NCBI GenBank assembly: GCA_028877195.1
Contig: JAPPIL010000181.1
Span: 1 to 13,691, forward strand
Direction: 5' to 3'
DNA from: Pseudomonadota bacterium
GTDB taxonomy: Bacteria; Bdellovibrionota_B; Oligoflexia; Oligoflexales; JAPPIL01
Length of the DNA: 13,691 bases
Below are positions 1 to 12,134 of the stretch, piece by piece (position 1 is the stretch's first letter; each line of letters begins with the position of its first letter). The translations under genes and the position numbers were made by a program. Under the pieces are notes generated by a model that was not told where the DNA came from, made no database searches, and saw only the letters and a program-made list of their open reading frames with translations.

Positions 1-360
1 AACGCACCAAGCAGTGTAGTCTGCCTCTACTTCATCTGCGACATTGCTTTGTCCCGTATGAGCATCACTCATGATGTAGTCATAGAGTTTTTTGCCGTTC
101 TTGTAGCCTGCCGCGGTCAGTAGTGCAACATTGTGCGCTTGATCAGATGTGAAGGCATCGGTTAACGAGCCTTTGGCATGATCATGGCAACCAGCGCAAA
201 TATCATCTATTGACGCTTGAATTTTTGTGAAGCCTGCGGCGCTACAAGTCGGTGATGGTGAAGTCGTGTCGGTCTCCACATCGTCAACTGGTTGAGCTTC
301 ACACTGGATTAGAGACATTCCCGTTAGGATTAAAAAAATTAACATGCGCCCGCAATACAT
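1..360 (-). CDS. c-type cytochrome, 5' portion only (gene continues beyond window start). The predicted N-terminus MYCGRMLIFLILTGMSLIQCEA... is a signal peptide. A single CxxCH haem-binding motif (CAGCH) is encoded at 184..198.
   Basis: Reverse-complement translation from the ATG at 358-360 gives an open frame running to position 1. It contains a hydrophobic signal sequence and DDICAGCHDHAKG. AGGGGG lies 5 nt upstream of the ATG as a Shine-Dalgarno. It is absent from the ORF track because it is truncated by the window edge. Confidence 0.5.
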   Translation of the reverse strand, partial: MYCGRMLIFLILTGMSLIQCEAQPVDDVETDTTSPSPTCSAAGFTKIQASIDDICAGCHDHAKGSLTDAFTSDQAHNVALLTAAGYKNGKKLYDYIMSDAHTGQSNVADEVEADYTAWCV

Positions 361-464
361 TGCTACCCCCCTATGTTTGCTGTGTTCAATCTGCTGTATT
401 TGATCTTGCTTATCTTGATGTTTTGCTCACCTTGCTCCAGTGTAATTGTTTATCAGGTAATCTT

Positions 465-577
465 AAATGTTTATTTTGGCATAGTCGCAAATATCCAGCT
501 GCCCAGCTTAAATTTAAAAGAAGGGTCGATGATAAAAACTAAATGTTTATTTCAGCAAGGTCGCAAATCTGCGGTGG
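465..577. repeat. Imperfect 29-bp direct repeat (TAAATGTTTATTTyrGCAwrGTCGCAAAT), two copies 73 bp apart. The second copy (540-568) is the last 9 codons plus stop of the ATPase gene. The first copy (467-495) lies just downstream of it.
   Basis: Direct comparison of 467-505 with 540-577 shows about 25 of 29 identical positions, after which the two sequences diverge. Confidence 0.5.
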
Positions 578-1399
578 ATCGCCGCGCTGAAGGATAAGGG
601 CATGCACCGAATCGCCGAGCATTTCTGGTTGAAATGAACTCGTGTATAAGGACAGCAGAAACCTTATCCTTGCCTGCACTTGGCGGCTCGATTCGGCATG
701 TAGGGTTGTTAACAAGCCGAGATGACCAATGGTCATAGCTTTGACAAAGGCGATAATTTCTTGCCCACGGATTTCTCCGATAACGAAACGATCGGGGCGC
801 AGACGCAATATTTCTTCAATCAACACTTCCATACTTGTATCACCCTGTGTTTGGCAACGCATCCACAGCGATGACATAAGCGGCAACTCAACGATAGATT
901 CAAGAATTGCCAGCCGCTCCTGTTGACACACTGCACGCAGTAGCGAAGCGAGAAAGGTTGTCTTGCCACTAGACGTTGAGCCGCAGACCAGCAAAGGTTT
1001 GTAGCCACGCACATGTGTCAGACAGTCGTCGCAAAGATTGTGCGGGTCGTTAAAATCAGCTAAGGTCAAGGCAGTAAACTCGTGTCGTCGCAGCGACACT
1101 ACTGCGCCATCGATTGCCACAGGTGGAATCAGGCAGTGCCAACGGACGTTATGTTCGTGTAGATAGCCACCACTGTATGGTTTGAGCGGGTCAAGGCGAA
1201 CTCCTTGCGAGAAGGAAAAATCCTGTAGCCAATGCACCATCTCCTGTTCGTTGGCGAAGATGGAGGGCAGGACTTTGCGTTTACCAGCAGTGTAGACGAC
1301 AACTGAACGGGTGCTGTTAATTAAAACTTCGTCAGTCGTGCGATCGGAGAAAAAGCGGTCGATGATGTCAGTAATATCAGCGCTGCTAATTGCGGAACC
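539..1399 (-). CDS. CpaF/TadA/VirB11-family (type II/IV secretion-type) ATPase, unusually small (about 287 aa if the whole open frame is used). The first ATG is at 1240, but the conserved N-terminal region is encoded upstream of it, out to 1399, with no canonical start codon.
   Basis: Walker A is GSTSSGKTT. The Walker B/His-box region is RPDRFVIGEIRGQE...TIGHLGLLTTLHAES. The Asp-box-like region is RLAILESIVEL. The upstream in-frame segment ...TDEVLINSTRSVVVYTAGKRKVLPSIFANEQEM matches the CpaF N-domain pattern (I.vNG...v.vER.GK...V...F.DE..L). The frame stays open to 1399 and contains only ATT/ATC/CTG as possible starts. Confidence 0.65.
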   Translation of the reverse strand, partial: GSAISSADITDIIDRFFSDRTTDEVLINSTRSVVVYTAGKRKVLPSIFANEQEMVHWLQDFSFSQGVRLDPLKPYSGGYLHEHNVRWHCLIPPVAIDGAVVSLRRHEFTALTLADFNDPHNLCDDCLTHVRGYKPLLVCGSTSSGKTTFLASLLRAVCQQERLAILESIVELPLMSSLWMRCQTQGDTSMEVLIEEILRLRPDRFVIGEIRGQEIIAFVKAMTIGHLGLLTTLHAESSRQVQARIRFLLSLYTSSFQPEMLGDSVHALILQRGDPPQICDLAEINI

Positions 1400-1802
1400 C
1401 TACTTTACCGCCACGCTTAACCGACGAGAGAATATCTTCGCGTGGCACGAGGTCAGTAGGGAGTTCCGCTCGCCGTAGGTTAGCACGGTAGAAGGTTGCC
1501 CCACGCAATTTCGCATAATCAAGGTCAGCTTCCTCAAGGTTGGCTCTGGTGAAGTCAGCGCCTTCAAGGTTCGCATTCCACAGCGATGCCCCTGACAAGT
1601 CGGCTTTGAAAAAATTAGCATCCTTGAGATTTGCGTAGGAAAAGTTCGCAAACTGAAGATTACAACCAGAGAAGTCTACCCGCGTAAGATTAGCGCGCCG
1701 CATATCCGTGTTGGATAGATCACTAGTTGAACCCAGTTTCTCAAGCACTTCCTTGCGGTTCAAAGATGCTACTGTTGAATTATTAAGACTCCCCCGTCCC
1801 AT
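1386..1802 (-). CDS. Pentapeptide-repeat protein (about 138 aa from the ATG at 1802; the track ORF extends to 1874).
   Basis: The C-terminal two thirds consist of A(N/D)LxxA(N/D)F-type pentapeptide repeats (ANLTRVDFSGCNLQFANFSYANLKDANFFKADLSGASLWNANLEGADFTRANLEEADLDYAKLRGATFYRANLRRAEL). The internal ATG at 1800-1802 is preceded by AGAGGT with 8-nt spacing. The stop at 1386-1388 overlaps the open frame of the downstream ATPase. Confidence 0.7.
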   Translation of the reverse strand: MGRGSLNNSTVASLNRKEVLEKLGSTSDLSNTDMRRANLTRVDFSGCNLQFANFSYANLKDANFFKADLSGASLWNANLEGADFTRANLEEADLDYAKLRGATFYRANLRRAELPTDLVPREDILSSVKRGGKVGFRN

Positions 1803-1934
1803 ACTCTTACCTCTGAAAAGAGCATCGTATAGAGGTAGCACAAAGGCCTGCTGTCCGCAATCTCTTTGTCTCAAACAAGAGCTTGTATTAGAAGGAGGTT
1901 AGCGGTTAAATAGTAGCAAGGTTAACGGGTTATC

Positions 1935-2983: not shown

Positions 2984-4363
2984 CTATGCGACAGTGCGTT
3001 TCGTGCGGCAGAGGAACATAGCAAGCAACAGTAGCAGTGCGATGAGCGGGTATTTGAGGAGCATAACCATCGCTAACGGCAAGAGTAGCAACGCTTGCGC
3101 CAACACTTTCAACAGCGCATTACTACTGATGTGTGTCGCTAACGCAGGGGAATGCTCGTAGTATAGGGCAACGAGCTTGCGCCCGCTAGCGTAGGGCAAC
3201 AAGAAACGATCGCGAAACCAGCGCAACTGTTTAACGATAACTGCATCTGACCCATAGGCAGCGGTGGCGATAAAACAATGGAGGTCATGCCGTTTAGCTT
3301 CACCCAAATCGTTGAGTTCCAACAGTGTTTTGTTTTCAATCGCCGCAGCCTCCATGCACACACTGCGAGCGATGCCGTCAGGGTAATGCTGTAGCATAAT
3401 CTGATAGACGACACCAGGCTTGAGGTCAGGTATTGAATCGCTACGTCCCGATAGCAGGGTTGAATTCGACAAGGCAGGAATCTTGCCAACCTCATCATAA
3501 GCAAGATAAACATTAGGTGTTGGGCAAGAGATGCTACAGTCTGGCAACCATTGACATTCAGCATCAGCTGGCAAGTCGGTATCCCCACCAGCAGCGACAG
3601 GTCTGAATACTTTGGCAATCGAGACAAGCGACACGGGTTCGGTGCTTTTCGCCAGCACATAGGCAACGACCCCACGCACAGGCTGTTTGCCCTGCGAGTT
3701 TGTGAATTCAACGACATTCTCCCGCTGCATTTCAACCTGCAAACGATGATGTAAAGCCGTTACCCCCGTTAACTTCGGCGCAACACTAGGGACACCATCA
3801 ATGCGAATGAACTCATGCGTTATCGCTGCCAACAGCCCACCATAAGAATCTACCCCCCAGACACGATACGCAATTCTAACCTTAAGCTTACCGCTATCAT
3901 CATAGAGAGCATTTAAGTTATCCTCGTAAGCCCTAATCGCAATCTCATAATAAACCGTCGTATTGCCATTGATATTAGGCTCTTCCTCCACCTCGCGATC
4001 GACAGGCACAAAGTAGTAGTCTCGATGGTGGCTAACATTTGGCGTTGAGTCCTGTTCATTCGCATGTTCTCTCGCCTGCACTGGCGATTCATAATGCGGC
4101 AATGGTAATTCACGACTGTCGGCATCACTGTCAGGCAACGTTACCCATAACCTTGCCCAGATATTTTCCTCGCCATCCTTGAGGGCAACATCACTCGGTA
4201 GGATGTCATCAATCGTGAAGCGAACCGTCAGTTGCCTAGTATCCTGCTGACGAGGCAAGCTGACATCGCTAACGCTAATCTTAATATCGGCGTATACTTG
4301 AAGAGAGAAAAGCGCGGTGGCAAGGCTTGGCAACAGTCGGTTAAATGGTAATCTCCAATCCAT
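2984..4363 (-). CDS. Secreted or surface protein, 459 aa. It has a cleavable N-terminal signal peptide (cleavage after ...LQVYA) and a C-terminal tripartite sorting-signal-like domain: CFIATAAYGS motif (3248..3277), a conserved LRWFRDRFLL...YY..SP segment, a hydrophobic helix and the basic tail CRTKRTVA.
   Basis: The N-terminus MDWRLPFNRLLPSLATALFSLQVYA-DIK is a typical Sec signal. The C-terminus CFIATAAYGSDAVIVKQLRWFRDRFLLPYASGRKLVALYYEHSPALATHI...YPLIALLLLLAMFLCRTKRTVA matches the architecture I recall for CFI-box-type C-terminal putative sorting domains. The central about 330 aa are acidic, with a Cys cluster (AECQWLPDCSISCPTP), and have no family I recognise. Confidence 0.7.
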   Translation of the reverse strand: MDWRLPFNRLLPSLATALFSLQVYADIKISVSDVSLPRQQDTRQLTVRFTIDDILPSDVALKDGEENIWARLWVTLPDSDADSRELPLPHYESPVQAREHANEQDSTPNVSHHRDYYFVPVDREVEEEPNINGNTTVYYEIAIRAYEDNLNALYDDSGKLKVRIAYRVWGVDSYGGLLAAITHEFIRIDGVPSVAPKLTGVTALHHRLQVEMQRENVVEFTNSQGKQPVRGVVAYVLAKSTEPVSLVSIAKVFRPVAAGGDTDLPADAECQWLPDCSISCPTPNVYLAYDEVGKIPALSNSTLLSGRSDSIPDLKPGVVYQIMLQHYPDGIARSVCMEAAAIENKTLLELNDLGEAKRHDLHCFIATAAYGSDAVIVKQLRWFRDRFLLPYASGRKLVALYYEHSPALATHISSNALLKVLAQALLLLPLAMVMLLKYPLIALLLLLAMFLCRTKRTVA

Positions 4364-5276
4364 CGTAACCAGCTAATACTCGCAAAGAAGAGTTATGTCC
4401 ATTGCTAGCCGCAATTTTATCAGCATAGGTAACCGCATCCTCACATTTGCGATGAATATCGCTGTCAACAGCATCAGGTGAATGATGCACCAGCACTATG
4501 TTAGAGATATTCTCACGGAACGCAAGATCAATACCACGCGCAGGGCTGGAATGTCCCCAATCATAGTGTTTCTCTAATTCGTGCGGTTCATAGTGGCTGT
4601 CAAAGATGAGATAATCAAGGTTTTGATAGCAGACCAAGTCCTTCCCCAATTCTTCGGGGGTGCTGCGATCGAGTTTAGTGTCTAATGCCACTGCCACCGA
4701 CTTGCCATCGACATCAAAGCGATAGCCGTAGGCATGCCCAGGATGATCAAGTGTAAATGGAGTTATCGCCACGCCATCCACCTCTACTAGGGTGCGGGTG
4801 GCAAGCTGATGAAAGTTTATCTCTGCTTCAATATTTTGCCATAGCACGGGGAAGTTTATGCCATTGAAGAGCAGTTCCAGATGCTTGGCGGCGTAGCTAT
4901 GGACATGATAAATATCCACCACCGAACCATGCTCATACAAGGGTGAGAAAAAGGGCAAGCCGATGACATGATCCCAATGCAGGTGCGTTAAGAAAACCTT
5001 ATGATGCCTAGACCTCTCGCCAATTTGACGGCCGTAGTCCACCAACCCAGTGCCGAGATCAATGATAAAACTACCGCTATTGTGCTTGATTTCAATACAA
5101 GTGGTATTGCCACCATAGGTAAGTGGTCTTGCCAGCCCCTTGAGGGTCGCACGCAGTTTATCGGTATCGTTGGTTAGCTGCTCGTTTTGTGCAAGACCAA
5201 CCAACATTTCAACTAAAGAGTCATGTGATACTGAACGTGGGCTTGAGCCGCGTGTGCCCCAGAATTTTAACTTCAT
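4341..5276 (-). CDS. MBL-fold metallo-hydrolase (metallo-beta-lactamase superfamily, PhnP/RNase Z-like subgroup), 311 aa.
   Basis: The zinc-binding signature HLHWDH (HxHxDH) is present. The N-terminal MKLKFWGTRGSSP is typical of this subgroup. Further His/Asp ligands sit at DHPGHAYGY and VLVHHSPD. The 3' end overlaps the start of the next gene by 23 nt. Confidence 0.75.
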   Translation of the reverse strand: MKLKFWGTRGSSPRSVSHDSLVEMLVGLAQNEQLTNDTDKLRATLKGLARPLTYGGNTTCIEIKHNSGSFIIDLGTGLVDYGRQIGERSRHHKVFLTHLHWDHVIGLPFFSPLYEHGSVVDIYHVHSYAAKHLELLFNGINFPVLWQNIEAEINFHQLATRTLVEVDGVAITPFTLDHPGHAYGYRFDVDGKSVAVALDTKLDRSTPEELGKDLVCYQNLDYLIFDSHYEPHELEKHYDWGHSSPARGIDLAFRENISNIVLVHHSPDAVDSDIHRKCEDAVTYADKIAASNGHNSSLRVLAGYDGLEITI

Positions 5277-7597: not shown

Positions 7598-8101
7598 CTA
7601 CAAATTCAATGCCTGCCGTAGAAATTCTTGCGATACCTCACCAGTTGTGTGGAAACGCACAACGCCTTGGCGATCAATGATAAATGTTTCTGGGACACCT
7701 GTAAGACCATAGTCGATGCCAATTTTGCCAGCAACGTCAAGAGCTAGTGGGTAATTTTTACCGTAGCGGTCAGCAAAAACTCTCGCATCACGGTGCTTGT
7801 CATGCACGGCTAGCCCCACCACTGCCAGCTTATCACGATGCCGTTGCCACATTCTCTCCAGCAAGAACGATTCCTGCCGACAGGCCATGCACCAGCTTGC
7901 CCAAAAATTCAAAATAACCGCCTGCCCTTGCGCTAGCTCTGCGGTTGATTGTAGCCAGTCGGCCTGTTCGATGCTTGGAGCTGGTTTGCCGATCAACGGG
8001 TGGGGAATCCTGCTCTTACCTAATCCACGACCGAGCAAATAAACCAGCCCCCCAGCCAAGCCGAGTAGGAGCGCACAGATGATTAGGTGTGAACGCTGCA
8101 T
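7598..8101 (-). CDS. ccmG: Thiol:disulfide oxidoreductase CcmG/DsbE (cytochrome c maturation).
   Basis: It has an N-terminal membrane anchor, LIGKPAP, the thioredoxin active site WASWCMACRQE (CxxC) and GLTGVPETFIIDRQGVVRFHTTGEV. All align closely with E. coli DsbE/CcmG. The ATG at 8099-8101 overlaps the ccmE stop as TGATG; the track start is a TTG one codon upstream. Confidence 0.8.
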   Translation of the reverse strand: MQRSHLIICALLLGLAGGLVYLLGRGLGKSRIPHPLIGKPAPSIEQADWLQSTAELAQGQAVILNFWASWCMACRQESFLLERMWQRHRDKLAVVGLAVHDKHRDARVFADRYGKNYPLALDVAGKIGIDYGLTGVPETFIIDRQGVVRFHTTGEVSQEFLRQALNL

Positions 8102-8559
8102 CAATCTTCTAGGAGTGATTTGATCAGCAACTCTTTGTTTTCAATCTTGTTGTCGTGTGGGACACGATATTCCTCTGAATGCTTGACCATCAGGGTGTGG
8201 GTTTTCATCGCCTTGTTTGTCGCATCAAAATACCCTTCAGCCACCACCCCCTGTCCCTCCCGAAACAGGTCTGGTGCTATGCCTGTATGCTTGACCTTTA
8301 TGTTATGCCCTTTGAAATCAGTGATGGTGAAGCGCAAGATATGTTTGCCAGCTGCTGCTTCATCGTTGGTCTGCTCTTCAACGCTGCCCGCCATGACCAT
8401 GCCGCCAATCTTGATATTCTTGTTGCGCAAATTTTCCCCAGCCGCAAACGCTTCCGATGGTGTGTAGAAATAAACCAAGTTGCCGCCAAGATTGACCAAC
8501 GAAATCACCAGCACAGCCGCGGCGATAACCGCTAATCCGATAACCCATTTAGTCTTCAT
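8101..8559 (-). CDS. ccmE: Haem chaperone CcmE (cytochrome c maturation).
   Basis: Signature segments are LVYFYTPSE, GGMVMAGSV, DLFREGQGVVAEG and the haem-binding KHSEEY (His/Tyr). The likely start is the internal ATG at 8557-8559 (MKTKWVIGLAV...), which overlaps the ccmD stop. The longer track ORF (to 8631) is probably an over-extension. Confidence 0.8.
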   Translation of the reverse strand: MKTKWVIGLAVIAAAVLVISLVNLGGNLVYFYTPSEAFAAGENLRNKNIKIGGMVMAGSVEEQTNDEAAAGKHILRFTITDFKGHNIKVKHTGIAPDLFREGQGVVAEGYFDATNKAMKTHTLMVKHSEEYRVPHDNKIENKELLIKSLLED

Positions 8560-8677
8560 GATTCTCCTGCAGAGTTGCGAGTAACTTGTGTAGTTTACCG
8601 CGCTCCCAATACAGGTAGACGATGAAAGCAACCAAAGCTACAAAACCAATCACATACACTGACACTAGCGCTAGCAT
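8549..8677 (-). CDS. ccmD: Small haem-exporter subunit CcmD (42 aa, single TM helix); not in the supplied ORF track.
   Basis: Reverse-complement ATG at 8675-8677 gives MLALVSVYVIGFVALVAFIVYLYWERGKLHKLLATLQENHED*. AGGAGA lies 12 nt upstream. Its stop sits inside the ccmE start codon region. Size, single TM helix and position match CcmD. Confidence 0.55.
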   Translation of the reverse strand: MLALVSVYVIGFVALVAFIVYLYWERGKLHKLLATLQENHED

Positions 8678-11285: not shown

Positions 11286-12134
11286 CTATACATGCTGGCG
11301 CACTAAATCACGGCAGATGTCTCTGGGAATACCCATGCTGAACAATGAGTCCATCGCCACATTAGCGATAGATGCTTGTAGATCAAAGTGGCTAGCATTA
11401 CCTGAATTCGTGAATACGGGTTGATGAGCATCGATCAAGGCGACCTTGTTCGCACCGAGCACTCGTTTCATATAGTCCACACTCGGTTGAACATTTTCAA
11501 CATAGAACACATATCTTGAACGCAACGACCCTTCGGTATCATCATCACGCTCACGTTGTTTGGCGCGCAGCATCATTTCTTGTTTGCTGATACTCAAGTG
11601 CAGAAGTTTGATTATCGGAATCTTGTAGCGATTCAAGTAAGAGATAAGATGCTTGGCTGCCGCAACCGTGCGTGGATAACCATCAAGGATAAACGACTGG
11701 TCTTGAATATCCTCCGAAATCTCAATCCGAGATTCAATAAAACATTTTGTCCAACGGTCAGGCACAAGCAAACCATTCTGGGTGCAAAACTCAAGCCAAT
11801 CAAGTTGCGAGATGCCTTTAGCTTGTATCCGCTTATCGCCAAAGTATTCCTTTAGGTTAGGCATAAAACGATTAACTTTGGCAATCAATTTCGCATCAGC
11901 ATCAACACACGAAAAAATATCGGACTCTGAACTAATATGATAACGGTCGGCTAACATCTTGGCATAATCGGGATTGCGTTGTGCCTCATTAAACGCAAAG
12001 CGCAATATCGCACCCATCGACAGGTGTAATGACGTTGGGATCGAAAGAGCCTTGCTTAAGAACACTGCCACCTCACCCTTGCCGCAGCTAGACGGCCCTG
12101 TGAGAATTATCGCACCGCGATTCTTAAGTCGGAT
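11286..12134 (-). CDS. Adenylate-kinase-family (NMP kinase) protein, short-LID type, with a roughly 60-aa C-terminal extension. The track start (GTG at 12071) cuts through the P-loop, so the true 5' end lies upstream at about 12134, with no canonical start codon.
   Basis: NMP-binding GAILR, FILDGYPRT and the LID/R-rich RAKQRERDDDTEGSLRSRY are all present. Immediately upstream and in frame are ...IRLKNRGAIILTGPSSCGKGEVAVF, the P-loop GxxxxGKG. The open frame extends to a TAA at 12162-12164. The only start candidates are ATC (12132-12134) or ATA. Confidence 0.6.
   Translation of the reverse strand: MRLKNRGAIILTGPSSCGKGEVAVFLSKALSIPTSLHLSMGAILRFAFNEAQRNPDYAKMLADRYHISSESDIFSCVDADAKLIAKVNRFMPNLKEYFGDKRIQAKGISQLDWLEFCTQNGLLVPDRWTKCFIESRIEISEDIQDQSFILDGYPRTVAAAKHLISYLNRYKIPIIKLLHLSISKQEMMLRAKQRERDDDTEGSLRSRYVFYVENVQPSVDYMKRVLGANKVALIDAHQPVFTNSGNASHFDLQASIANVAMDSLFSMGIPRDICRDLVRQHV

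What the first reader, a model, noticed from the sequence alone, without database searches (positions are those of the whole stretch)
539..1399. Orphan, unusually small CpaF/VirB11-type ATPase with no canonical start for its N-domain and substitutions at two conserved acidic positions
The family-conserved N-terminal segment is encoded between the first ATG (1240) and the upstream stop (1400-1402), yet that stretch has no ATG, GTG or TTG. An ATT at 1388-1390 overlaps the pentapeptide gene's TAG as ATTAG. Where relatives have IED, the Asp-box-like region reads LES. The Walker-B-adjacent motif reads GEIRG where relatives have GE(I/M)RD. No other pilus or secretion-system genes (inner-membrane platform, secretin, pilins) are present in 13 kb. 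The neighbours are a pentapeptide-repeat protein and a cytochrome c. The options are a decaying pseudogene, a rare non-canonical start, or a repurposed regulatory or pseudo-ATPase.
Basis: partly seen in the sequence, partly recalled or inferred. Interest (0 to 1): 0.55.

Follow-up and report, generated by a model that had tools for sequence, protein, structure and literature searches.

The report
Mini CpaF-like ATPase, AUU/AUC start
This is an intact, selectively maintained, stripped-down secretion-type motor ATPase whose translation must begin at a rare non-canonical Ile codon. Its relatives sit next to the DNA-uptake gene dprA rather than next to pilus genes.

Summary
The core observation holds. 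On the minus strand the ATPase frame is open from 1399 to 542, and there is no ATG, GTG or TTG before ATG 1240. Those 53 codons nevertheless encode a helix and three strands of the family's N-domain.

It is not a pseudogene. An 85%-identical gene from another sample has the same gap. There dN/dS is 0.06 upstream of the ATG and 0.04 downstream, and the window's ATG is a Leu codon. Initiation must therefore use one of four conserved Ile codons: ATT 1390, ATT 1375, ATC 1366 or ATC 1363. GenBank already starts the protein at ATC 1363.

The "lost acidic residues" are not decay. GE(I/V)RG is the CpaF norm. The Asp-box D→S change is shared by the whole clade, and every residue described as catalytic in CpaF is retained.

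Two things are new. The about 285-aa family is linked to dprA in all 14 distinct relative loci examined, and is never seen with pilus genes. The window lineage has lost that linkage and sits behind a pentapeptide-repeat gene. It alone also has a 7-residue deletion of the "Central Loop", which in CpaF is modelled to contact the platform proteins.

I classify it as a new variant of a known kind, of moderate interest.

The parts
539..1390 (-). Mini CpaF/VirB11-type ATPase coding region at its maximal extent (283 aa if started at ATT 1390, 278 aa from ATT 1375, 274 aa from ATC 1363 as in GenBank). Stop TAA at 541-539.
   Evidence: Translation. Pfam T2SSE 90.6 bits against a cut-off of 24.9. AF2 pLDDT 92 and pTM 0.87. 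Foldseek top hits are CpaF 8rjf/8rkd and VirB11 HP0525.
1400..1402 (-). In-frame TAG that closes the ATPase frame upstream. It sets the upper limit for any start.
   Evidence: In the relative L001 the same TAG is present, with a further stop 5 codons upstream, so read-through from an upstream start is excluded.
1388..1390 (-). Candidate start ATT (Ile4 of the open frame), overlapping the pentapeptide gene's TAG as ATTAG.
   Evidence: Sequence. It is ATT in L001 too. An SD-like hexamer lies 7 nt upstream.
1398..1403 (-). SD-like GTAGGG, 7 nt upstream of ATT 1390 (GTAGGT in L001). It lies inside the pentapeptide coding sequence.
   Evidence: This is weak evidence, because the bases also encode Val-Gly of the upstream protein.
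1373..1375 (-). Candidate start ATT (Ile9). It lies 7 residues before the conserved FF, where relatives have their Met 8 residues before FF. It is also the first residue of the predicted helix 1.
   Evidence: Alignment, L001 codon comparison, AF2 secondary structure.
1361..1366 (-). ATC-ATC (Ile12, Ile13). ATC 1363-1361 is the start used in the deposited GenBank protein (MDRFF...).
   Evidence: Both codons are ATT-ATT in L001. Starting here would cut predicted helix 6-14 in half.
1238..1240 (-). First ATG. ENA and Logan gene callers used it (233-aa product), but it is not the real start.
   Evidence: It is Leu (CTG) in L001. dN/dS upstream is 0.06. AGGAG abuts the ATG with zero spacing.
956..982 (-). 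Walker A / P-loop, GSTSSGKTT (K146).
   Evidence: Invariant G, G and K in 60 of 60 sequences.
887..901 (-). Asp box, ESIVE. E167 and E171 are invariant. The Asp of CpaF's 'ED' is Ser here.
   Evidence: S 19 and A 4 in the clade; D in 27 of 32 CpaF-likes. CpaF E312 is the residue described next to the Mg2+.
833..853 (-). Shortened loop QTQGDTS at the position of the CpaF 'Central Loop'. It carries a 7-residue deletion found only in the window and its 85% relative.
   Evidence: The segment is 18 aa in 58 of 58 other sequences and 11 aa here and in P0002. In CpaF, residues E331-G334 of this loop are modelled to contact platform proteins CpaG/CpaH, and mutating them abolished phage infection; the authors caution that lower expression may contribute.
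764..790 (-). Walker B, RFVIGEIRG (E209, R211).
   Evidence: E and R are invariant in 60 of 60. G212 is the CpaF norm.
695..727 (-). His box, GHLGLLTTLHA (H226, H234).
   Evidence: Both His are invariant in 60 of 60.
1386..1802 (-). Upstream pentapeptide-repeat gene (138 aa from ATG 1802). Its stop overlaps ATT 1390, so it is a likely operon partner.
   Evidence: Pfam Pentapeptide 1e-25. The same gene, 84 of 87 residues identical, precedes the ATPase in L001.

Best explanation
Window 539-1390 (minus strand) encodes a functional, stand-alone 'core-only' traffic ATPase of about 278-283 aa, made of an NTD2-like domain plus a RecA-like domain. It belongs to the CpaF/TadA-VirB11 branch.

Shown:
- It belongs to an unnamed chromosomal family whose other examined members lie directly behind dprA, or inside the dprA-smg(-topA) cluster.
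- In this lineage the gene has moved behind a pentapeptide-repeat gene.
- It has lost any ATG/GTG/TTG start for its N-domain and has a 7-residue deletion in the Central Loop.
- It remains under strong purifying selection along its whole length.

Inferred:
- Translation starts at a near-cognate Ile codon. My rough split is ATT 1375 about 0.45, ATT 1390 about 0.35 and ATC 1366/1363 about 0.15.
- Initiation is probably helped by translational coupling to the pentapeptide ORF, whose stop overlaps or lies 10 nt upstream. This should give low, IF3-sensitive expression, as with infC and pcnB in E. coli.
- The protein hydrolyses ATP as a hexamer like CpaF/VirB11, because every residue described as catalytic there is kept.
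- Its cellular job is related to DNA uptake or processing rather than to building a pilus encoded next door. This is the least certain step.

The confidence given applies to the core claim, namely an intact, selected ATPase gene initiated at a non-canonical Ile codon. It does not apply to the DNA-processing role.
For: 1. No canonical start lies between 1399 and 1241.
2. Family profiles and solved CpaF align from residue 8-15. The AF2 model (pLDDT 92) places one helix and three strands upstream of Met 1240.
3. The 85% relative L001 comes from a different sequencing run and shares the layout. It has no ATG, GTG or TTG before the conserved FF/DxxxxEVL motif. Window ATG 1240 corresponds to CTG there. 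dN/dS is 0.06 over the 53 upstream codons and 0.04 downstream, with dS saturated.
4. The only near-cognate codons in the permitted 16 codons are four Ile codons, and they are Ile in both genomes.
5. A second assembler reproduces window 57-1863 exactly.
6. GenBank's own protein for this contig starts at ATC 1363.
7. AUU, AUC, AUA and CUG initiate at about 1-2% of AUG in E. coli, and infC and pcnB use AUU naturally (bioRxiv 10.1101/063800).
8. All residues described as catalytic in CpaF are invariant in 60 of 60 aligned sequences.
9. dprA linkage:
- dprA lies immediately upstream, overlapping the ATPase gene, in 6 of 6 clade loci. The overlap is 4 nt in five of them, and at least 17 nt in L088, depending on which start is taken.
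- The order is dprA-smg-ATPase in 5 more distant loci.
- dprA-smg lies 2.5-5 kb upstream in L095, L096/L099 and L098, with topA shown in between for L096 and L098.
- This is based.
10. An NJ tree puts window+P0002 as sister to the dprA-overlap clade in 96 of 100 bootstraps.
Against: - The exact start codon is not determined. Only two genomes of this sub-lineage exist in the databases searched.
- The SD-like element before ATT 1390 is weak and lies in coding sequence. ATT 1375 has no SD.
- No experimental data (N-terminal peptide, ribosome profiling) are available.
- ATPase activity and hexamer formation are inferred from conservation, not tested.
- Loss of the Asp-box Asp and of the Central Loop could alter activity or partner binding.
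- The functional link to DNA processing rests on gene order alone, and that order is absent in this window. Some dprA neighbours may reflect an old conserved gene order (LysM/TsaP-dprA-smg-topA) rather than shared function.
Confidence: 0.8

Rival explanations
1. The real product is the 233-aa protein starting at ATG 1240, as the ENA and Logan gene callers predicted. The upstream open frame would be untranslated remnant sequence.
For: It is the first canonical start. AGGAG lies just upstream. Two automated pipelines chose it.
Against: The ATG is CTG (Leu) in the closest relative. The upstream 53 codons have dN/dS 0.06 with saturated dS, and an in-frame 6-nt indel. The AGGAG abuts the ATG with no spacer. 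The product would lack helix 1 and three strands of a confidently folded N-domain. All relatives start about 8 residues before the FF motif.
Confidence: 0.04
2. The gene is a decaying pseudogene that lost its start codon after being separated from dprA.
For: It has no canonical start. It lost the ancestral dprA coupling, the Asp-box Asp and 7 residues of a conserved loop.
Against: The same features are shared with a relative separated by saturated synonymous divergence, while dN/dS stays at 0.04-0.06. There are no stops or frameshifts over 286 codons, and all catalytic residues are kept. The loop deletion is in frame and identical in both.
Confidence: 0.03
3. The N-domain is translated by a +1 ribosomal frameshift, or by read-through, from the pentapeptide ORF, giving a fusion protein.
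For: The ATPase frame is +1 relative to the pentapeptide frame, and the two overlap by 14 nt (1386-1399).
Against: There is no shared slippery site in the 4-codon overlap: GGG TTC CGC AAT TAG in the window against GGT TTT CGC AAT TAG in L001. tRNA-Asn cannot re-pair AAU to AUU. Relatives are stand-alone proteins whose Met aligns with this region. The ATPase frame upstream of the TAG has an extra stop in L001.
Confidence: 0.03
4. A sequencing or assembly error destroyed a canonical start codon.
For: The source is a metagenome-assembled contig, and a single-base error could turn ATG into ATT.
Against: A second assembler gives an identical sequence over 57-1863. An independent sample (L001), 15% divergent in protein, also lacks any canonical start and has ATT at all four Ile positions.
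Confidence: 0.02
5. Functional rival: the protein is an ordinary pilus or secretion motor (Tad/T4P/T4SS) whose partner genes are simply encoded elsewhere in the genome. On this reading the dprA neighbourhood of its relatives is only inherited gene order. This rivals only the inferred DNA-processing role. It is compatible with the core claim about an intact gene with a non-canonical start.
For: The fold and catalytic set are those of CpaF/VirB11. The dprA-linked relatives keep the RLDP 'Loop 8' motif and a full-length (18-aa) Central Loop segment, with a G-x-G motif in many of them. In the more distant dprA-smg-linked relatives a LysM-domain gene precedes dprA, as tsaP does in Pseudomonas, Vibrio and Acinetobacter.
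Against: None of the 14 distinct relative loci examined has a T2SSF platform, pilin or secretin gene nearby. A 340-aa out-group (P0062) does have them. The window lineage has deleted the loop that is modelled to contact the platform. The protein lacks the NTD0/NTD1 and C-terminal extensions of CpaF.
Confidence: 0.35

Closest known systems
CpaF/TadA, the Tad pilus motor ATPase (Caulobacter crescentus; PDB 8rkd, 8rjf, 9e24)
   Same: Best sequence and structure match (profile E 1e-48; Foldseek E 1e-23, TM 0.70). It shares the NTD2 + RecA-like CTD architecture, the GE(V/I)RG Walker B, Asp-box Glu, His box, R223/R347-equivalent arginines and the RxDP 'Loop 8' motif.
   Different: The window protein is 278-283 aa against 501 aa. 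It lacks NTD0/NTD1 and about 60 C-terminal residues. The Asp-box Asp is Ser, and the Central Loop (E331-G334 region) is shortened by 7 residues. There are no tadB/C, cpaE or pilin genes nearby, and it falls below every NCBIfam cut-off.
VirB11/TrbB type IV secretion ATPases (e.g. H. pylori HP0525, PDB 1g6o)
   Same: Two-domain hexameric traffic-ATPase fold of similar size, about 320-330 aa. NCBIfam TrbB_P and VirB11 are among the top profile hits.
   Different: Scores are 114 and 103 bits against cut-offs of 305 and 250. There are no T4SS genes nearby. It is about 45 aa shorter.
TIGR03819 'TadA family conjugal transfer-associated (helicase/secretion neighbourhood) ATPase' of Actinomycetota
   Same: Best NCBIfam hit (1e-39, 136.7 bits). 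It is a small CpaF-like ATPase.
   Different: The cut-off of 373 bits is not reached. The present family has dprA/smg instead.
E. coli infC and pcnB (natural AUU-initiated genes)
   Same: A gene with an essential N-terminus and no AUG/GUG/UUG start. An AUU near-cognate codon is the most plausible initiator.
   Different: Initiation here has not been shown experimentally. The AUU candidates lie at or 10 nt after the stop of an upstream ORF, which suggests coupling rather than IF3 autoregulation.
PINA, the archaeal Holliday-junction branch-migration ATPase (PDB 5f4h)
   Same: A member of the same ATPase superfamily that acts on DNA rather than on a pilus. It appears among the fold and profile hits.
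   Different: The match is distant (17-18% identity). PINA has a PIN domain and a KH domain that are absent here. It is a lead only.

Membership tests
T2SSE / PilT-VirB11 secretion-ATPase superfamily (Pfam PF00437) | Pfam T2SSE score above the gathering threshold | tested here: met
   90.6 bits against 24.9
T2SSE / PilT-VirB11 secretion-ATPase superfamily (Pfam PF00437) | Walker A, Walker B (catalytic Glu) and His box present | tested here: met
   K146, E209, R211, H226 and H234 are invariant in 60 of 60 aligned sequences
T2SSE / PilT-VirB11 secretion-ATPase superfamily (Pfam PF00437) | Asp box with its acidic residues | tested here: inconclusive
   Both Glu (E167, E171) are invariant. The Asp next to the first Glu is Ser (S or A throughout the clade; D in 27 of 32 CpaF-likes). 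The CpaF structure paper names only the Glu (E312) among the active-site residues.
T2SSE / PilT-VirB11 secretion-ATPase superfamily (Pfam PF00437) | Two-domain fold (N-terminal alpha/beta domain + RecA-like domain) | tested here: met
   AF2 pLDDT 92. Foldseek matches CpaF, HP0525, GspE2 and FlaI with probability 1.00.
T2SSE / PilT-VirB11 secretion-ATPase superfamily (Pfam PF00437) | ATP hydrolysis and hexamer formation | not testable with these tools
   Needs purified protein.
CpaF/TadA (Tad pilus motor) | N-terminal NTD0/NTD1 extension and full-length C-terminus (about 400-500 aa) | tested here: not met
   The alignment covers CpaF residues 156-399 of 501. The query has nothing before or after.
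CpaF/TadA (Tad pilus motor) | Conserved Central Loop (E331-G-S-G334) modelled to contact platform proteins CpaG/CpaH | tested here: not met
   A 7-residue deletion: the segment is 11 aa here against 18 aa in 58 of 58 other sequences.
CpaF/TadA (Tad pilus motor) | Encoded in a tad/cpa locus with tadB/C (T2SSF), cpaE/tadZ, pilin and secretin genes | tested here: not met
   None in the 13.7-kb window nor in the relatives' loci. The rest of the genome could not be examined.
VirB11 / TrbB (type IV secretion) | NCBIfam equivalog score above the cut-off | tested here: not met
   VirB11 102.6 against 249.95; TrbB_P 114.1 against 304.55
VirB11 / TrbB (type IV secretion) | Adjacent VirB/Trb genes | tested here: not met
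   None in the window
Unnamed dprA-linked mini-ATPase family (defined here) | Monophyletic with the 284-293-aa proteins P0003-P0024 | tested here: met
   54-60% identity. NJ bootstrap 100 of 100 for the joint clade, and sister position in 96 of 100.
Unnamed dprA-linked mini-ATPase family (defined here) | Gene lies directly downstream of dprA (overlapping it) or in a dprA-smg cluster | tested here: not met
   The window and L001 have a pentapeptide-repeat gene upstream, and there is no dprA in 13.7 kb. Relatives: 6 of 6 overlap dprA, 5 have dprA-smg-ATPase, and 3 have dprA-smg 2.5-5 kb upstream.
Genes initiated at a non-canonical AUU/AUC codon (as infC, pcnB) | No AUG/GUG/UUG upstream of conserved, selected N-terminal coding sequence | tested here: met
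   (dN/dS 0.06 upstream of the first ATG; the same holds in L001)
Genes initiated at a non-canonical AUU/AUC codon (as infC, pcnB) | Near-cognate codon conserved at the expected N-terminus | tested here: met
   ATT 1390 and ATT 1375 are ATT in both genomes. ATT 1375 aligns one residue from the relatives' Met. The sample is only two genomes.
Genes initiated at a non-canonical AUU/AUC codon (as infC, pcnB) | Experimental N-terminus (fMet at the AUU) | not testable with these tools
   Needs proteomics, initiation profiling or a reporter assay.
Pseudogene | Frameshifts, stops or relaxed selection | tested here: not met
   286 open codons; dN/dS 0.04-0.06

The most novel reading that the evidence does not exclude
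The about 285-aa proteins are a previously undescribed family of core-only CpaF-like ATPases that work with DprA in DNA uptake or recombination rather than in pilus assembly. In one lineage ComM is an apparent operon partner; elsewhere RecJ, RuvAB or TopA genes lie nearby. The window's sub-lineage would then be a further specialised offshoot. It has shed the loop that is modelled to dock onto platform proteins. It is translationally coupled through a rare AUU start to a pentapeptide-repeat protein. Some pentapeptide-repeat proteins, such as Qnr and MfpA, are DNA mimics (this last point is from my own knowledge).
Probability: 0.2. Interest if true: 0.65.

Novelty: new variant of a known kind. 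Interest (0 to 1): 0.42.

Why it matters
- It is a clean comparative case for a natural AUU/AUC-initiated bacterial gene. Such genes are rare; only infC and pcnB are confirmed in E. coli. It also shows how gene callers disagree: 233 aa against 274 aa against the likely 278-283 aa.
- Because it lacks a canonical start, standard pipelines truncate the protein. That hides a conserved family.
- That family is a minimal traffic ATPase tied to dprA in every relative locus examined. It is absent from curated NCBIfam models and from the literature I could search.
- If the ATPase acts in transformation or DNA processing, it would add a new motor to that pathway in Oligoflexus-like and related uncultured bacteria.
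- The window variant, with its Central Loop deleted, would be a natural test of what that loop does.

Tried and rejected
- Genome-collection scan with the clade alignment. It returned only 27-38% relatives, mostly actinomycete TadA-like, but did give two Oligoflexus MAG loci that proved useful.
- Metagenome scan with an RWHC(L/V)(I/L)PP pattern. It gave 16 loci, all relatives at 43% identity or less, and no further member of the window's sub-lineage. The start codon therefore rests on two genomes.
- PADLOC defence models for the ATPase, pentapeptide, kinase, CFI-box and MBL proteins: nothing meaningful.
- Promoter and terminator scan of 300-2100: counts at or below shuffled expectation, with no sites on the gene's strand, so uninformative.
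- Literature searches for DprA+CpaF, dprA+smg+Bdellovibrio and Oligoflexia+transformation found no description of this family.
- Read-through from an upstream start in the ATPase frame (the 83-aa ORF 1400-1651) was rejected. L001 has an extra stop there.
- +1 frameshifting was rejected for lack of a shared slippery site.
- Taxonomy could not be settled. GenBank labels the MAG 'Pseudomonadota bacterium', while the only named relatives are Oligoflexus MAGs.
- Whether the same genome also carries dprA, a second dprA-linked copy, or platform and pilin genes could not be tested.
Full report
**1. What is in the sequence**

On the minus strand an open frame runs from just after a TAG at 1402-1400 down to a TAA at 541-539, 286 sense codons in all. 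The ORF list and the translation agree that the first ATG, GTG or TTG in this frame is ATG 1240-1238.

The upstream gene is a 138-aa pentapeptide-repeat protein at 1802-1386 (Pfam 1e-25). It ends in AAT TAG.

By the window's own codon usage (ATG+GTG+TTG = 6.8% of codons), 53 codons without a canonical start has P about 0.024. For the 16 codons that matter, P is about 0.32. The gap is therefore not statistically striking in itself. What matters is that the stretch is real coding sequence.

**2. The upstream 53 codons are translated**

- NCBIfam profiles (TadA-like TIGR03819, TrbB) align from residue 8-15 of the open frame. A profile of the family aligns to solved CpaF from residue 11.
- An AlphaFold2 model built on a 60-sequence alignment is confident (pLDDT 92, pTM 0.87). 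It places helix 6-14 and strands 19-25, 29-34 and 37-41 upstream of the Met encoded by ATG 1240.
- The closest relative in 5.8 billion proteins is P0002 (85% identity), from a different run (L001, SRR13587048). It has the same pentapeptide-then-ATPase layout.
- Codon by codon, the 53 upstream codons have dN/dS 0.06 and the remaining 234 have 0.04. Synonymous sites are saturated.
- The window's ATG 1240 is CTG (Leu) in L001. L001 also has no ATG, GTG or TTG until a TTG inside the nearly invariant EVL motif, which is TTA in the window.
- A Logan assembly of SRR10996926 is identical to window 57-1863. An error-made gap is thus very unlikely.
- Read-through from further upstream is excluded, because L001 has an additional stop in that frame.
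- The 4-codon overlap contains no shared slippery site for a +1 shift.

**3. Where translation starts**

The start must lie in the first 16 codons, upstream of the conserved FF-xD motif. The only near-cognate codons there are four Ile codons: ATT 1390, ATT 1375, ATC 1366 and ATC 1363. All four are ATT in L001.

- Relatives place their Met 8 residues before FF, and all examined have ATG, GTG or TTG.
- ATT 1375 lies 7 residues before FF and is the first residue of predicted helix 1.
- ATT 1390 overlaps the upstream stop. It has an SD-like GTAGGG (GTAGGT in L001) 7 nt upstream.
- In five of the six dprA-linked clade loci the start overlaps the dprA stop as ATGA. A GGAGG-like SD is visible upstream in L004 and L087. 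Coupling is therefore probably ancestral.
- The GenBank protein for this very contig is MDE3269747.1, 274 aa, 'ATPase, T2SS/T4P/T4SS family [Pseudomonadota bacterium]'. It begins MDRFF, that is at ATC 1363. The non-canonical start is thus already implicit in the public annotation. That choice, however, truncates helix 1.
- ENA and Logan callers chose ATG 1240 (233 aa).
- In E. coli, AUU, AUC, AUA and CUG initiate at about 1-2% of AUG. infC and pcnB are the confirmed natural AUU genes.

I cannot decide between ATT 1375 and ATT 1390 with two genomes.

**4. The 'missing acidic residues'**

- Solved CpaF reads GEVRGPEA. In the 60-sequence alignment the position after the Arg is G in 28 of 32 CpaF-like proteins and in all 23 clade members. 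GEIRG is therefore normal, and GE(I/M)RD belongs to the PilT/GspE branch.
- The Asp-box 'ED' of CpaF is 'ES' here. It is S in 19 and A in 4 clade members, H, A or D in the 36-44% group, and D in 27 of 32 CpaF-likes.
- The CpaF cryo-EM paper (PMC11300603) names these active-site residues: K287, Asp-box E312, Walker B E357, R359, His-box H382, NTD2 R223 and trans-acting R347.
- Their equivalents here are K146, E167, E209, R211, a His-box His (H226 and H234 are both kept), R86 and R199. Each is invariant in all 60 sequences.

This is not a pseudo-ATPase by sequence.

**5.

The segment between the WxR strand and the following helix is exactly 18 residues in 58 of 58 other aligned sequences. It is 11 residues in the window and P0002 (window 833-853).

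In CpaF this is the 'Central Loop' (E331-G-S-G334). It faces the membrane and is modelled to contact the platform proteins CpaG/CpaH. A quadruple mutant abolished phage infection, though the authors caution that lower expression may contribute.

The 'Loop 8' RxDP motif is kept (RLDP, invariant).

**6. What family it belongs to**

About 24 proteins of 284-293 aa share 54-60% identity with the window protein. In all six distinct loci I could fetch, the gene lies directly behind dprA and overlaps it. These are L002/L003, L004, L087, L088, L109 and L110.

- The overlap is 4 nt in five of them. In L088 it is 17 nt if the likely GTG start is used.
- The dprA genes score 173-190 bits on TIGR00732, against a cut-off of 191.
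- This rests.

In L002, comM follows 62 nt downstream on the same strand. In L087, recJ is convergent.

More distant relatives (32-44% identity) show dprA-smg(DUF494)-ATPase:
- two Oligoflexus MAGs (L005, L006);
- L105/L106;
- a JGI contig;
- L107, where ruvBA is convergent downstream and the gene in the smg position has no Pfam hit on record.

In L096/L099, L095 and L098 the dprA-smg pair lies 2.5-5 kb upstream of the ATPase. topA was shown in between for L096 and L098.

In the more distant dprA-smg-linked loci a LysM-domain gene precedes dprA. This recalls the tsaP-dprA adjacency seen in the locus tags of Pseudomonas, Vibrio and Acinetobacter.

A 340-aa out-group (P0062) instead sits with a T2SSF platform gene, DUF4244 and a large helicase.

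An NJ tree places window+P0002 as sister to the dprA-overlap clade in 96 of 100 bootstraps. The two together are monophyletic in 100 of 100, inside the dprA-smg-linked group. dprA linkage is therefore ancestral, and the window arrangement is derived.

No NCBIfam model reaches its cut-off. No PADLOC model matches. I found no paper describing the family.

**7. Comparison with known systems**

In fold and sequence the protein is closest to CpaF/TadA (profile E 1e-48; Foldseek E 1e-23). Next come VirB11 HP0525, archaeal GspE2 and FlaI.

It is a core-only version. It has no NTD0/NTD1, it lacks about 60 C-terminal residues, and in this lineage it has no Central Loop.

It fails the defining features of CpaF membership (architecture, Central Loop, tad locus) and of VirB11/TrbB membership (score, locus). 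I therefore file it only in the T2SSE superfamily, as a member of an unnamed dprA-linked family.

It probably works as a hexameric ATP-driven motor; that part is inferred. What it moves is unknown. The neighbours point to DNA uptake or processing: dprA always; comM, recJ, ruvAB or topA in some loci. An archaeal superfamily member, PINA, does act on Holliday junctions and appears among distant hits. This is gene-order evidence only, and the window itself lacks those neighbours.

**8. Verdict**

The pseudogene and pseudo-ATPase readings are rejected. The non-canonical-start reading is strongly supported, and the GenBank annotation already implies it.

The additional findings raise this from an annotation curiosity to a moderately interesting lead. 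They are a dprA-linked mini-ATPase family, and a derived sub-lineage with a pentapeptide partner and a Central Loop deletion.

Noticed in passing
window 1386-1802 (-) and L001 2-265: The pentapeptide-repeat protein is more conserved between the two genomes (84 of 87 aligned residues) than the ATPase it precedes (85%). This suggests the pair is a selected unit. Its best NCBIfam hits (Alr5209-type, HetL) are far below their cut-offs.
   Followed up: partly
window 1-360 (-), runs off the window start (full ORF in L085 10881-11246): This is the 'cytochrome c' neighbour. It is a 121-aa ORF with an N-terminal hydrophobic signal-like segment and a single CAGCH motif. It has no Pfam cytochrome match, and the gene is not conserved downstream in L001.
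   Followed up: partly
window 1400-1651 (-): An 83-aa ORF lies in the ATPase frame, wholly inside the pentapeptide gene. It is interrupted by an extra stop in L001, so it is most likely an alternative-frame artefact of the repeat-coding DNA.
   Followed up: yes
window 2984-4363 (-): A 459-aa protein with no Pfam hit but a clear NCBIfam CFI-box-CTERM domain (71 bits against a cut-off of 40). It overlaps the preceding metallo-beta-lactamase-fold gene (4341-5276) by 23 nt.
   Followed up: no
window 7598-8677 (-): A compact cytochrome c maturation cluster: a small 42-aa ORF, CcmE (start 8559), then a thioredoxin/AhpC-TSA-like protein whose start codon (8101) overlaps the CcmE stop codon. This is the only heme-related gene set in the window.
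   Followed up: no
window 11286-12071 (-): A 261-aa ORF in which the adenylate-kinase domain matches only residues 97-202. The GTG start chosen mechanically may be too far upstream, or there may be an N-terminal extension.
   Followed up: no
L002 7057-10522: In one relative the order is dprA, mini-ATPase (4-nt overlap), then comM/YifB (377 bits, 62 nt downstream, same strand). This is an apparent three-gene transformation-type operon.
   Followed up: partly
L005 5999-6664 and L098 10547-11443: In two distant relatives an unannotated ORF follows the ATPase, overlapping it in L005 and 36 nt downstream in L098. The L005 ORF is 221 aa and rich in hydrophobic segments. Neither has a Pfam hit. I did not test whether they are related to each other or to platform proteins.
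   Followed up: no
L004, L087, L109, L110: In the dprA-overlap clade the pair sits divergently from a conserved rho-rpmE-prfA block. This indicates a stable core-chromosome location rather than a mobile element.
   Followed up: partly
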